Shown: positions 6,001 to 9,000 of the stretch, piece after piece
Layout of the letters: every line of letters begins with the position of its first letter
Numbering within the stretch: position 1 is the first letter of the stretch
Assembly (NCBI GenBank): GCA_000165345.1
Contig: CM000429.1
Location: 768,001 to 832,000 of the forward strand
Length of the DNA: 64,000 nucleotides
Direction: 5' to 3'
Position numbers: made by a program

Positions 6001-9000
6001 AGAGTTTGATACGCCATTCATGTTTGTGCTTTGTCTTCTGGAATTAGAATTTCCATTTTTATGAAATTGTTTCTGATTTAGCTCAAAGTATAGGTGATTT
6101 TGACCTTGATCAGACAACTTATTCAGTTCATTTACTCCAATTTTAATATTATTAACATCATACTCCTTCTCAATTGGCGTATCGTAGCTTAATCCCGTTC
6201 CAATCCCTGTTCCTGTTTGTCCTGTTCCTGTTCCTATTCCTCCTGAGCCAAGACCCACTCCAAGTCCAAGGCCAACTCTTGACCCTCCTCCATTAAAATT
6301 CAAATTGTTGATTAATCCTAATTGATTATTTGGATTTAACTTTGTTTGTTGGCTGTATACCATATTGTTGTTATTTCCATAACCACTTTCTCCAAAAATA
6401 TTGGGACAACCTGGAAATACTGAATTTTGATTTTGGATTACATTTGGTCTAAGCTTTGCAGAATTATATTGAATTTCATTATCCATTAAATTACCACCAT
6501 TTCCTCCACAAACTCCATTTTCAATTTCTTGAATATGGCCATTTGTTGGAAAATTTATATTTGGTCCACCAACAACACTTTTCCCAAACTGATTCTGTTG
6601 TTGGTATTTTGTTAAGTTTCCTGTTCCTGTATAACCACCTCCCATTAATGTCTCTTCTGGTAATCCAAAATAGAACAATGGAGCTGCTGTGGAAAATGGG
6701 ACAAAATTTACCTGTTCATTAATTCCATTGCTTGAAAAGAAAGGATTATTTTGAGGAAGTCCAGTAAAAGGAGGAGGGGTACTAATGCATAATGCCACTA
6801 AATTTAATAAATTTTGATTATTATTTGGAAACAATAATGGCTGACCAAAATATGGAATGAATTGTCCAGAAGATGTTGAAGTGCCTATTGAACTTACTCC
6901 ATTTGTTGTATTTGTTGAAGAAAGAAGCAAGTTAATCCCATTGAAATCTGGATTTTCTAAAGATCTAGATGATGTTGGAGAAACTGCCTGCTTTACATCA
7001 TGCACTAATTCCTCATCATCTATCTCTAAAAAATCCATCATATCATCATCTTCATTCCCTATTGGTAGTTTTAGTGTGCATCCGCTTTTCCTCTCTTCCA
7101 CTGACATCTTTCGATATTTCTGTATTAGTATTTATGCTCTCATGTATATTCTTCTAATAGTTCTCTATTTTTTATTCTTAAAACTCAAATATGAAATATT
7201 AATATATATATATATATGTATATTTTTTCTAAGCTTGGTATTTTCTTCCTCGTCTAATTGATTTTTTAAATATTATTATCAATAATATTAATATCAATAC
7301 AGATAAATATAGATATATAATTAATATATTGTATATTTACTTCTCCTCTTTCTTCCTCTTCCTATTCTTTATCTCACTCTTTTTTCCTTCTCACACACTA
7401 TTTCAATCTTTGTCTGATTTACCCAATGCATGCATGCATGCATGCGAATAATGTAATTACGAATTTATTATTATTTAACACGTGTAAAAATTTAATATTA
7501 AATTTTCGTTGAAAAATTTTCTATATTGGAAACAATTTTTTTTTTTTAATTTGAGAATTATTTTTATGTTCTTCTTAATAATGATTTTCCTAATTTTAAT
7601 TTATTAGGAAATATTTAATATTTATTTGTACCCAAATTTTATGTAATATTGCTTATTTTTTATGGTATTAATTGCACCCTTTCCTTTGTGTGTAAATTAA
7701 TTAATTAAATTATTACTGTAACAAAAATCCAAATTTTCTTAAAAGTAATATTACTGTTTTTTCTGAAACAAAATATTGTTAATTTTTTATCAAAAAATAT
7801 CAAATTAACTAAAATTCAATATATAAACTCTCTTAATTTCCTACTTCTCTTATTCCATTATTTTTTATTTATAATGTAGTATATATTAATTTTTGCTACC
7901 CCAAATTATTTCATTTACACTTTTTTTTCTCCAAAATATTCTACTCAGTTCCAACCTTTTTATTCTCGTTCTTTAATTTTACACTTAGATTTTATCTCTA
8001 GAATATTCCCAGTCTCAAATATCAAACTTTGACTAACTCTTGCCAAAGTACAAAACTATAAAGACTGGTGTGGCGCCTAAACTTGCATGCATTGCATGCA
8101 ATTTGTCCATTTGAATATCTCTAATCTCTTATAAAGAAAAATAATTATGGTTATTTTTTTAGCTTTATAAAAAGATTTTCAATGTTTACTCTACCAAATT
8201 TGAAATATACTCATTATTCTATCAAACTTTGATCAAATTAAAAATTTTGGGAATTTGCTAGTCAATATTTAATATTTCTAATTTATTAAATTAATAATAA
8301 TTTAATAAGCATTACGTGTCAACTATTTTTTACCAATACTAATAATAATAGTGTTTTTAATTTATTAAAAAAAGAAATTGATTTTAATTCAATTTTTTTT
8401 TTTTTTTTAGAATATTAAATGGTCTAATATTTAACCTATTTTATTCCTCCTTTGTTTTAAATCTAATTATTCTCAGAAGAACTAAAAACATGGTCTAATA
8501 AATATTGTTCAAGTTAGATTTCTTTTCAATTAGACATAGTAACAAAAAAACAAAATCTTAAAAAAAACGTGAGAATGAACGATTAAGTAGAGTTAGGGAA
8601 TTCAGTTATTTCTTTTTTTTAAAAAAAAAAAAAAAATTCTCTTAAACAAATAATGTAATTCGCAAACTAGGAACATCTTTTTCAATAAATAACTTAACCA
8701 GCTTAACTAAGCCGTTATAACAACATTAAATACAAACTACTTTAATGTTAGCAGTGAATAATTAACCAAAATAAAGTGCAATAAAAAAAGAGTAGATATT
8801 TGTGCAATCGAACTGTTTAGTCTTAGTTTTTAAGCATTTCAAAAATTAAATGTAATAAATAGGATATGGGAAGAGACAAGAAAAGTAAAAATATCACTCT
8901 TATCTACACGTCATTGGAAAAAGAAAAAAAAAGGATAAAACCTCTTTTTTTCGTTCTATACAAATTATTTCCAACTCCATCCAAATCCCCTAATTACGTT

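What the first reader, a model, noticed from the sequence alone, without database searches (positions are those of the whole stretch)
7426..8100. (CATG)5 array and further GCATGCA copies in the ApiAP2 gene's own upstream region
GCATGC(A) is a known apicomplexan cis-element that several ApiAP2 domains bind. Five overlapping copies sit about 320 bp upstream of an ApiAP2 gene, with two more plus a GGCGCC box about 1 kb upstream. This suggests auto- or cross-regulation by AP2 factors. It is also a slippage-prone microsatellite that could modulate expression by copy number.
Basis: partly seen in the sequence, partly recalled or inferred. Interest (0 to 1): 0.5.

Follow-up and report, generated by a model that had tools for sequence, protein, structure and literature searches.

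The report
Conserved TGCATGCA array upstream of cgd1_3520
A five-unit TGCA repeat 320 bp upstream of the Cryptosporidium parvum transcription-factor gene cgd1_3520 is a deeply conserved, fixed-length cluster of the DNA motif this factor binds in vitro, so it is probably a feedback or cross-regulatory switch site and not a variable microsatellite.

Summary
The window is Cryptosporidium parvum chromosome 1. The ApiAP2 gene at 5437-7107 (-) is cgd1_3520.

The array is (ATGC)5 at 7426-7445. It holds 4 overlapping GCATGC and 3 TGCATGCA, not five. It lies 319-338 bp upstream of the ATG. Twin TTGCATGCA copies (8083-8100) and an E2F-type box TGGCGCCT (8071-8078) lie about 1 kb upstream.

GCATGC occurs 7 times in this 3.3-kb spacer against 0.11 expected.

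- Published protein-binding microarrays show the cgd1_3520 AP2 domain binds TGCATGCA.
- The array is present in all orthologous promoters examined. Its invariant core is the longest run of unchanged bases in the spacer across eight intestinal Cryptosporidium species.

The slippage idea is not supported. The array has five units in all eight species and in every isolate examined. Poly-T and (AT)n tracts in the same spacer do vary between two C. hominis assemblies.

Best reading: a homotypic ApiAP2 site cluster giving auto- and/or cross-regulation. This pattern is already known for PfAP2-G, PfAP2-I and TgAP2XII-8. It is a new member of a known kind, of moderate interest.

The parts
7426..7445 (-). 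(ATGC)5 array. In gene sense it reads CGCATGCATGCATGCATGCAT at -338..-319. It holds 4 overlapping GCATGC and 3 overlapping palindromic TGCATGCA (AP2_1) sites.
   Evidence: TRF; pattern hits. The 17-nt core GCATGCATGCATGCATG is invariant in 8 species and is the longest invariant run in the spacer.
7392..7502 (-). Conserved proximal block (-395..-285) that contains the array. It also holds the flanks CGTAATTACATTATT and TGGGTAAATCAGACAAAG and a GTGTGTGAG (CACACA-type) element.
   Evidence: Sliding identity of 0.7-0.93 in the four distant species, against a spacer mean of 0.54. Alignment.
7478..7485 (.). ACACGTGT palindrome about 32 nt upstream of the array, in gene sense. Binding factor unknown.
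   Evidence: Invariant in 8 species and the second-longest invariant run. 2 copies in the window against 0.09 expected.
7347..7397 (-). Purine-rich (GA-rich) tract just downstream of the array in gene sense. It resembles the GAGA-like promoter motif family of C. parvum.
   Evidence: Sequence; conservation; motif family from PMC3734150. Assignment is by inference.
7673..7679 (-). GGGTGCA element at -572..-566.
   Evidence: Invariant in 8 species.
8083..8100 (.). Distal module 1: direct repeat TTGCATGCA x2, giving two TGCATGCA sites at about -980 and -990.
   Evidence: TRF. Both copies are kept in C. parvum, C. hominis, C. tyzzeri, chipmunk genotype I and C. ubiquitum. One copy is kept in C. meleagridis and C. 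canis. It is lost in C. felis.
8071..8078 (.). E2F/DP-type box TGGCGCCT (AGGCGCCA in gene sense), 5 nt from the twin TGCATGCA.
   Evidence: WSGCGCSW occurs 8 times in the window against 0.51 expected. Consensus from PMC3734150 and PMC12246861. GGCGCC is conserved in 5 of the 8 intestinal-clade species (C. parvum, C. hominis, C. tyzzeri, C. meleagridis, C. ubiquitum) and lost at the aligned position in chipmunk genotype I, C. canis and C. felis.
9252..9259 (.). Distal module 2: TGCATGCA at about -2150. In gene sense it reads CACACATGCATGCA, so a CACACA-type motif abuts it.
   Evidence: Conserved in C. parvum, C. hominis, C. tyzzeri, C. meleagridis and C. ubiquitum; degenerate in chipmunk genotype I.
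7108..10390 (-). The complete 3283-bp upstream spacer of the AP2 gene. It runs to the stop codon of the RRM gene, which is on the same strand.
   Evidence: Gene calls in the syntenic loci. No coding-type conservation. No Rfam match.
5437..7107 (-). ApiAP2 gene cgd1_3520, 556 aa. The AP2 domain is residues 400-447, about 5767-5910.
   Evidence: Pfam AP2 E=2e-11. The protein is identical to C. parvum Iowa II EAK88304.1, and cluster mates carry the tags CPHLJ_1g3520 and CHM_1g3520. The domain matches PDB 3igm, PF14_0633, at E=4.5e-11.

Best explanation
The (TGCA)5 array is a selectively maintained cluster of overlapping palindromic TGCATGCA (AP2_1) sites in the proximal upstream region of cgd1_3520. 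It most likely serves as a high-occupancy docking platform for TGCATGCA-binding ApiAP2 proteins.

The gene's own product is one of those proteins, so the simplest circuit is a feedback loop on cgd1_3520 transcription. I think positive feedback is the more likely sign, by analogy with ap2-g. Input from the other TGCAT-binding factors (cgd2_3490, cgd8_3230, cgd5_4250) would be layered on top.

Two distal modules extend the control region to 3.3 kb: twin TGCATGCA plus an E2F box at about -980, and CACACATGCATGCA at about -2150. The invariant ACACGTGT just upstream of the array suggests a partner factor.

Shown: the sequence, its enrichment, its deep fixed-length conservation, and the in vitro specificity of the domain (from the literature).

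Inferred: occupancy in vivo, which AP2 binds, and the sign of regulation.
For: Identity of the gene:
- The window protein is identical to a C. parvum Iowa II protein. Sister entries in its cluster are tagged 1g3520.
- It lies on a chromosome-sized contig of about 880 kb, in conserved RRM-AP2-TSP-TSP synteny.

Binding specificity:
- PBM shows cgd1_3520 binds the TGCATGCA-type motif, with a G-box as secondary motif (PMC4117751; also cited in PMC11078545).
- The DNA-contacting beta-sheet region is nearly identical to PF14_0633, the structurally solved TGCATGCA binder 3igm: GVSWN.RM.AWLAFF.

Enrichment:
- GCATGC 7 against 0.107 expected and TGCATGCA 6 against 0.014 in the spacer.

Conservation:
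- The 17-nt core is invariant in 8 species, while only 11.3% of spacer positions are invariant.
- Identity of the spacer to C. parvum falls to 0.41 in C. canis and 0.38 in C. felis.
- The array is the most conserved 20-mer of the spacer: 0.93 against a mean of 0.54.
- C. xiaoi and C. ryanae keep TGCATGCA clusters of 2-3 units, next to ACACGT(G/A), at the equivalent place.
- The 75-aa AP2 domain is 100% identical in all intestinal-clade orthologues and 96% identical in the distant ones. Factor and site are thus conserved together.

Precedents:
- PfAP2-G has eight copies of its own motif upstream of its gene and a positive feedback loop. PfAP2-I binds its own promoter (PMC6631176).
Against: - There are no ChIP, CUT&RUN, ATAC or transcription-start data for this locus, so binding in vivo and promoter versus 5'UTR location are both unknown.
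- Four C. parvum AP2 domains bind TGCAT-type sites, so the sites do not say which factor acts.
- TGCATGCA is the most over-represented octamer in apicomplexan intergenic DNA. It is 23-fold enriched across this window, so its presence upstream of any one gene is weak evidence for a specific circuit.
- Published expression data for cgd1_3520 disagree: a peak at 12 h, 'preferentially sexual stages', and 'not stage-specific'. None of these shows the switch-like behaviour expected of a strong positive loop.
- The secondary G-box motif of this factor is absent from the spacer.
Confidence: 0.6

Rival explanations
1. Cross-regulation only. The array and the distal modules are read by another TGCATGCA-binding ApiAP2 (cgd2_3490, cgd8_3230 or cgd5_4250). 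This places cgd1_3520 downstream in an AP2 cascade with no self-feedback.
For: - Four C. parvum AP2 domains bind TGCAT-type sites, and between them they are expressed at all time points (PMC4117751).
- PfAP2-EXP/SP sites are predicted upstream of most ApiAP2 genes (PMC6631176), which fits a cascade.
- The sequence data fit this reading as well as they fit auto-regulation.
Against: The gene's own domain binds the same octamer in vitro. Once the protein is present it would have to be kept away from its own promoter. Own-promoter binding has been observed or inferred for the other ApiAP2s that were tested.
Confidence: 0.25
2. Generic promoter or chromatin element. TGCATGCA arrays act as a general promoter-opening or start-site-positioning element, for example by recruiting bromodomain or chromatin complexes. 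They would carry no gene-specific regulatory logic.
For: - The motif is 23-fold enriched across the window.
- It is linked to TgBDP1-associated promoters (papers listed).
Against: - No other upstream region in the window carries more than two copies, whereas this one carries six, in three conserved modules.
- The fixed five-unit length and the co-conserved ACACGTGT partner suggest a specific architecture.
Confidence: 0.1
3. One reading: a slippage-prone microsatellite whose copy number varies among isolates and tunes expression.
For: It is a perfect tetranucleotide repeat of five units. Over deep divergence the unit number does differ: 2-3 units in the C. xiaoi and C. ryanae clusters.
Against: - There are five units in all eight intestinal-clade species, three C. 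parvum sources and two C. hominis assemblies. The only changes are point substitutions at the array edges.
- In the same spacer, a poly-T tract differs by 11 nt and an (AT)n tract by 2 nt between the two C. hominis assemblies. Slippage is therefore visible where it is tolerated.
Confidence: 0.03
4. A structural or RNA-level element. Either the self-complementary, alternating pyrimidine-purine tract acts through cruciform or Z-DNA formation, or it lies in a long 5'UTR and acts as a UGCAUG-repeat hairpin or protein-binding site on the mRNA.
For: (TGCA)5 is its own reverse complement and strictly alternates pyrimidine and purine (direct reading of the sequence). The transcription start is unknown, so a 5'UTR location is not excluded.
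Against: - The predicted hairpin is weak and no better than shuffled sequence: -7 to -8 kcal/mol, z = -0.87, 33 of 200 shuffles fold at least as well.
- The non-tandem TGCATGCA copies at -980 and -2150 are also conserved, which argues for octamer recognition and not for a repeat-dependent structure.
- There is no Rfam match.
Confidence: 0.04

Closest known systems
AP2_1 / TGCATGCA cis-element of Apicomplexa (TRP-2 in Toxoplasma; the PfAP2-EXP / PbAP2-Sp / cgd2_3490 binding site)
   Same: Identical palindromic octamer. It lies in upstream non-coding DNA, is strongly over-represented, and is bound in vitro by the AP2 domain encoded next to it (PMC4117751).
   Different: Here the octamer is not a single site. 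Overlapping copies are packed into a perfect five-unit tandem array whose length is fixed across eight species. Two more conserved modules lie further upstream. I found no description of this array in the searched library.
Plasmodium ap2-g positive autoregulatory loop (several GTAC-type AP2-G motifs in its own long upstream region)
   Same: An ApiAP2 gene with an unusually long upstream region. That region carries multiple copies of the motif its own domain recognises (review PMC6631176).
   Different: The motif and the factor differ. The ap2-g copies are dispersed over 2.1-3.6 kb upstream and are not tandem or overlapping. For ap2-g, self-binding and feedback are shown experimentally. Here they are only inferred. 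Heterochromatin silencing of ap2-g has no known counterpart at this locus.
Toxoplasma gondii AP2XII-8 (TGCATGCA binder with its motif in its own promoter and an apparent feedback loop)
   Same: The same octamer, and the same logic of a factor's own motif in its own promoter (PMC11358496).
   Different: Orthology to cgd1_3520 was not established here. AP2XII-8 drives a ribosomal-protein regulon in G1. The regulon of cgd1_3520 is unknown.
PF14_0633 (PfAP2-EXP/SP) AP2 domain, PDB 3igm
   Same: Closest solved DNA-binding AP2 domain (E=4.5e-11). The beta-sheet segment GVSWN-RM-AWLAFF is shared. Oberstaller et al. treat cgd1_3520 as a putative orthologue with the same specificity.
   Different: cgd1_3520 also binds a G-box as a secondary motif. 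Outside the domain the proteins are unrelated in sequence.
Promoter microsatellites and contingency loci that tune expression by repeat number
   Same: A perfect short tandem repeat in an upstream region.
   Different: The defining length polymorphism is absent. The repeat behaves as a constrained element, not a mutable one.

Membership tests
AP2_1 (TGCATGCA) ApiAP2 cis-element | Exact match to the palindromic core TGCATGCA / GCATGCA | tested here: met
   Six exact TGCATGCA in the spacer: three in the array, two at 8084-8100 and one at 9252-9259.
AP2_1 (TGCATGCA) ApiAP2 cis-element | Located in non-coding DNA upstream of a gene and over-represented relative to composition | tested here: met
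   The spacer 7108-10390 holds no conserved ORF. TGCATGCA occurs 6 times against 0.014 expected, with 0 of 5000 shuffles reaching that count.
AP2_1 (TGCATGCA) ApiAP2 cis-element | Evolutionary conservation of the site in orthologous promoters | tested here: met
   The 17-nt core is invariant in 8 species. Clusters are retained in C. xiaoi, C. ryanae and C. serpentis.
AP2_1 (TGCATGCA) ApiAP2 cis-element | Bound by an ApiAP2 domain | not testable with these tools
   Published PBM shows the motif is bound by the cgd1_3520, cgd2_3490, cgd8_3230 and cgd5_4250 domains (PMC4117751). Binding to these particular sites was not assayed.
Autoregulatory ApiAP2 loop (ap2-g type) | The factor's own recognition motif occurs in multiple copies in its own upstream region | tested here: met
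   The gene is identified as cgd1_3520. Six TGCATGCA lie upstream.
Autoregulatory ApiAP2 loop (ap2-g type) | The factor occupies its own promoter in vivo | not testable with these tools
   No ChIP or CUT&RUN data for cgd1_3520 were found in the searched literature.
Autoregulatory ApiAP2 loop (ap2-g type) | Transcription of the gene depends on its own product | not testable with these tools
   Needs genetic perturbation.
E2F/DP binding site (C. parvum E2F motif family) | Match to [A/T][C/G]GCGC[G/C][A/T], over-represented in upstream DNA | tested here: met
   TGGCGCCT at 8071-8078. There are 8 matches in the window against 0.51 expected. Consensus from PMC12246861.
E2F/DP binding site (C. parvum E2F motif family) | Conservation in orthologous promoters | tested here: inconclusive
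   GGCGCC is kept in C. parvum, C. hominis, C. tyzzeri, C. meleagridis and C. ubiquitum. It is lost at the aligned position in chipmunk genotype I (GAGCGCT), C. canis (GGGCGTC) and C. felis.
Expression-tuning promoter microsatellite / contingency repeat | Perfect short tandem repeat in a regulatory region | tested here: met
   (ATGC)5, 100% matches.
Expression-tuning promoter microsatellite / contingency repeat | Repeat-number polymorphism among isolates or close species | tested here: not met
   Five units in 8 species, 3 C. parvum sources and 2 C. hominis assemblies. Other simple tracts in the same spacer do vary. The isolate sample is small.

The most novel reading that the evidence does not exclude
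The five-unit length is itself functional. On this reading, the 20-bp self-complementary array offers two non-overlapping TGCATGCA sites in several registers to a dimeric AP2 domain. (From memory, the PF14_0633 domain crystallised as a domain-swapped dimer.) Together with the ACACGTGT partner site and the two distal modules, it would form a cooperative, looped, bistable positive-feedback switch. cgd1_3520 would then be a commitment-type regulator of a Cryptosporidium life-cycle transition, analogous to ap2-g. The switch architecture would be conserved across the intestinal clade, which includes the main human-infecting species C. parvum, C. hominis and C. meleagridis.
Probability: 0.12. Interest if true: 0.65.

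Novelty: new member of a known kind. Interest (0 to 1): 0.35.

Why it matters
Gene regulation in Cryptosporidium is poorly understood, and very few cis-elements have been tied to a particular factor and target.

This locus offers a concrete, compact and testable candidate circuit. The factor's in vitro specificity is known, and its own upstream region carries the most conserved non-coding element of the locus, made entirely of that factor's motif.

C. parvum can now be edited by CRISPR. The array can therefore be mutated, shortened or lengthened directly, to test for feedback control of an ApiAP2 and to find out why exactly five units are kept.

The finding does not alter the current picture of ApiAP2 biology. 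Own-motif-in-own-promoter arrangements are already documented in Plasmodium and Toxoplasma.

Tried and rejected
- Hidden gene or RNA in the 3.3-kb spacer. Six-frame segments of at least 35 aa were run by tblastn against five orthologous spacers. Hits were short, fell in several frames and both strands at the same places, and were absent in C. felis, C. xiaoi and C. ryanae. This is nucleotide-level conservation, not coding conservation. Rfam at E<=1 found nothing.
- Hairpin or cruciform. The DNA fold of 7400-7470 is no better than shuffled sequence.
- Length variants in JGI metagenomes. A flank-anchored pattern with a 5-35 nt gap found no contig. These metagenomes appear to hold no matching Cryptosporidium sequence.
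- Promoter of the paralogue cgd2_3490. A homologue search with the 77-aa AP2 domain alone returned no candidates, so the paralogue could not be fetched and this test was dropped.
- More isolates. The contig look-up collapses near-identical places, so only one extra C. hominis assembly was obtained. Look-ups are exhausted.
- Prior description of the array. A full-text search for TGCATGCATGCA returned only unrelated papers. Oberstaller 2014 contains no mention of autoregulation, own promoter or feedback.
- Supplementary PBM tables of PMC4117751 are not held. The exact cgd1_3520 logo and enrichment scores could not be read.
- The bacterial promoter and terminator scanner was not used, because the organism is a eukaryote.
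Full report
**What the window is.** The sequence is about 30% G+C. The ORF at 5437-7107 on the minus strand encodes a 556-aa protein with one Pfam AP2 domain (E=2e-11, residues 400-447). Its closest relatives are all Cryptosporidium AP2 proteins. An exact-sequence look-up shows it is identical to a C. parvum Iowa II protein (EAK88304.1). Its 90% cluster contains entries tagged CPHLJ_1g3520 and CHM_1g3520. It sits about 100 kb from one end of an 881-kb chromosome-sized contig. The gene is therefore cgd1_3520 on C. parvum chromosome 1. The neighbours are two thrombospondin-repeat genes on one side and an RRM gene (10391-10987, minus strand) on the other. This order is kept in every Cryptosporidium species fetched. 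Because the RRM gene is on the same strand, the whole 3283-bp spacer 7108-10390 is upstream DNA of the AP2 gene alone. It is one of the two longest gaps between long ORFs in the window.

**Checking the observation.** Tandem Repeats Finder reports a perfect period-4 array (consensus ATGC, 5.0 copies) at 7426-7445.
- It contains four overlapping GCATGC, not five.
- It contains three overlapping TGCATGCA. The fourth copy is spoiled by a C where most other species have T.
- The 'two more copies' are a direct repeat TTGCATGCA x2 at 8083-8100.
- The 'GGCGCC box' is TGGCGCCT at 8071-8078. Both are about 1 kb upstream, as stated.
In gene sense it reads CACACATGCATGCA, at about -2150.
- In 5000 dinucleotide-preserving shuffles of the spacer, GCATGC is expected 0.107 times (observed 7) and TGCATGCA 0.014 times (observed 6). 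No shuffle reached the observed counts.
- Across the whole window TGCATGCA occurs 15 times against 0.65 expected. Six of those 15 are in this spacer, which is 5% of the window.

The unit and site counts were slightly overstated.

Does this AP2 domain bind GCATGC? Oberstaller et al. 2014 (PMC4117751) assayed the C. parvum AP2 domains on protein-binding microarrays. They report the following:
- cgd1_3520 recognises the TGCATGCA-type motif.
- It is a putative orthologue of PF14_0633.
- It is the only C. parvum domain that also binds a completely different secondary motif, the G-box.

A later paper restates that cgd2_3490 and cgd1_3520 share this motif (PMC11078545). In agreement, the best DNA-binding structural match is PF14_0633 (PDB 3igm, E=4.5e-11), with the beta-sheet segment GVSWN.RM.AWLAFF shared.

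Is the repeat present in orthologous promoters? I fetched the syntenic locus from C. hominis (two assemblies), C. tyzzeri, C. meleagridis, chipmunk genotype I, C. ubiquitum, C. canis, C. felis, C. xiaoi, C. ryanae and C. serpentis. All eight intestinal-clade species, counting C. parvum, carry the array 218-400 bp upstream of the ATG. Neither refutation condition is met.

**How conserved the array is.** I aligned the eight intestinal-clade spacers.
- Identity to C. parvum is 0.96 for C. hominis and falls to 0.41 (C. canis) and 0.38 (C. felis).
- Only 11.3% of C. parvum positions are invariant in all eight species.
- Against this background, the longest invariant run in the whole 3.3 kb is GCATGCATGCATGCATG (17 nt), the core of the array.
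- The next longest runs are ACACGTGT (8 nt, about 32 nt upstream of the array) and GGGTGCA (7 nt, at -572).
- In a 20-nt sliding window the array scores 0.93 identity in the four distant species, against a spacer mean of 0.54.
- It sits in a conserved block from about -395 to -285, followed by a conserved purine-rich tract.
- The 75-aa AP2 domain is 100% identical in all intestinal-clade orthologues, although the whole proteins fall to 58% identity. It is 96% identical in C. xiaoi, C. ryanae and C. serpentis. The factor's DNA-reading surface and the site array are thus conserved together.
- In C. xiaoi and C. ryanae the proximal region holds TGCATGCATGCA at about -400, GCATGC at about -350 to -360, and a further cluster of 2-3 units preceded by ACACGT(G/A) at -276 and -304. 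That last cluster looks like the homologue of the ACACGTGT + array module.
- C. serpentis has TGCATGCACACATGCA at -126.

**The slippage idea.** The array has exactly five units in all eight intestinal-clade species. The only differences are point substitutions at its edges:
- the first T is C in C. parvum;
- the last unit reads TGTA in C. ubiquitum;
- the array ends TGCG in C. canis.

The window, a C. parvum assembly and an independent SRA-derived C. parvum contig have spacers of equal length (3283 bp) with identical motif positions and array sequence. The two C. hominis assemblies differ at six places in the spacer. These include an 11-nt change in a poly-T tract (-1559) and a 2-nt change in an (AT)n tract (-107), but not the array. 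So slippage is visible where it is tolerated, and the TGCA array behaves as a length-constrained element. Unit number does differ at much greater evolutionary distance (2-3 units in C. xiaoi and C. ryanae). The isolate sample is small, but nothing supports copy-number tuning.

**Other readings examined.**
- Hidden gene. The spacer contains no conserved coding sequence. Six-frame segments matched only C. ubiquitum and C. canis, in several frames and both strands at the same places, which is the signature of nucleotide conservation.
- Known RNA family. None matches at E<=1.
- Structure. The array is self-complementary and strictly alternates pyrimidine and purine. Its predicted hairpin, however, is weak and no better than shuffled sequence (z=-0.87). 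The conserved non-tandem TGCATGCA copies at -980 and -2150 argue for octamer recognition, not for a repeat-dependent structure.
- E2F box. The GGCGCC box matches the C. parvum E2F consensus [A/T][C/G]GCGC[G/C][A/T] (PMC12246861; TGGCGCCA in PMC3734150). That pattern is 16-fold enriched in the window. It is kept in five of the eight intestinal-clade species. E2F and AP2_1 motifs were reported together upstream of genes expressed only at 12 h post-infection (PMC3734150), and cgd1_3520 was reported to peak at 12 h. This link is suggestive only.

**Most likely mechanism.** The array is a homotypic cluster of overlapping AP2_1 sites. It acts as a high-occupancy platform for TGCATGCA-binding ApiAP2 proteins in the proximal control region of cgd1_3520, together with two distal modules and at least one unknown partner site (ACACGTGT). 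Because the gene's own product binds this octamer in vitro, a feedback loop is the simplest circuit.

Because three other C. parvum AP2 domains bind TGCAT-type sites, cross-regulation within an AP2 cascade is equally compatible with the sequence data. It probably coexists with self-regulation.

The sequence anatomy, the enrichment, the conservation and the in vitro specificity (literature) are shown. In vivo occupancy, the identity of the acting factor, the sign of regulation, and whether the array lies upstream or downstream of the transcription start are all inferred or unknown. Published expression descriptions of cgd1_3520 are inconsistent: a 12-h peak, sexual-stage preference, or not stage-specific.

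**Comparison with what is known.**
- The element belongs to the AP2_1 / TGCATGCA family, described as the most over-represented octamer in apicomplexan intergenic DNA (PMC6631176).
- The circuit logic has precedents. PfAP2-G has eight copies of its own motif in a long upstream region and a positive feedback loop. PfAP2-I binds its own promoter. [quoted passage not shown] PfAP2-EXP sites are predicted upstream of most ApiAP2 genes.
- Specific to this locus is the packing of the sites into a perfect five-unit array whose length is fixed across the intestinal clade.
- I found no description of this array, or of cgd1_3520 self-regulation, in the searched library. That library is not exhaustive.

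**Verdict.** This is a real, statistically robust and deeply conserved cis-element. It is a new member of a known kind of circuit. It is a good experimental handle for Cryptosporidium gene regulation, but it would not surprise a specialist. Interest is 0.35.

Noticed in passing
window 7478-7485 and 46815-46822: The palindrome ACACGTGT is invariant in eight Cryptosporidium species just upstream of the array. The only other copy in the window lies 15 nt from an E2F-like AGGCGCCT (46793-46800). There are 2 copies against 0.09 expected. No binding factor was identified.
   Followed up: partly
window 7108-10390: The upstream spacer of cgd1_3520 is 3.3 kb, one of the two longest gaps between long ORFs in the window. 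It is kept at 2.7-3.4 kb in ten species, with no conserved ORF and no Rfam hit. The C. felis annotation places a 124-aa gene model with no domain inside it (L007 2384-2837).
   Followed up: partly
window 7673-7679: GGGTGCA (gene sense, -572) is invariant in eight species. GGTGCACC, the reported cgd4_3820 motif, sits beside the TGCATGCA cluster in C. serpentis (L012, about -106).
   Followed up: no
window 4987-4994: A TGCATGCA lies in the convergent 3' spacer between the thrombospondin-repeat gene (3099-4622, plus strand) and the AP2 gene (stop at 5437). That is downstream of both genes.
   Followed up: no
L003 vs L013 (C. hominis), -1559 and -107 relative to the AP2 ATG: The two C. hominis assemblies differ by 11 nt in a poly-T tract and by 2 nt in an (AT)n tract of the same spacer. 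These could be true polymorphisms or assembly noise.
   Followed up: partly
L007 (C. felis), immediately 5' of the array at about -412: C. felis has a 12-nt palindrome, AGTGACGTCACT, containing a CRE-like TGACGTCA. It abuts the array in place of the CGTAATTACATTATT flank seen in the other species.
   Followed up: no
window 5767-5991 (AP2 domain and flanks, residues 386-460): The 75-aa AP2 domain region is 100% identical in all intestinal-clade orthologues (including an unnamed SRA-derived species, P0005). The rest of the protein diverges to 58% identity and varies in length from 496 to 571 aa. It reaches about 800 aa in C. xiaoi and C. ryanae.
   Followed up: yes
window 11654-11669 and 55633-55670: A G16 homopolymer and a perfect (CTTT)9 microsatellite (within a longer TCTT-rich array, 55596-55682) stand out in this ~30% G+C sequence.
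   Followed up: no
PDB matches to the AP2 domain: Apart from 3igm, the best solved-structure matches are T. gondii AP2VIIb-2 and AP2IX-6. Their chain labels (9g6k_Lk, 9i05_Xn, 9fi8_HR, 9hqv_Yn) suggest very large assemblies. AP2-fold proteins seem to occur there as structural subunits and not as DNA-binding factors.
   Followed up: no
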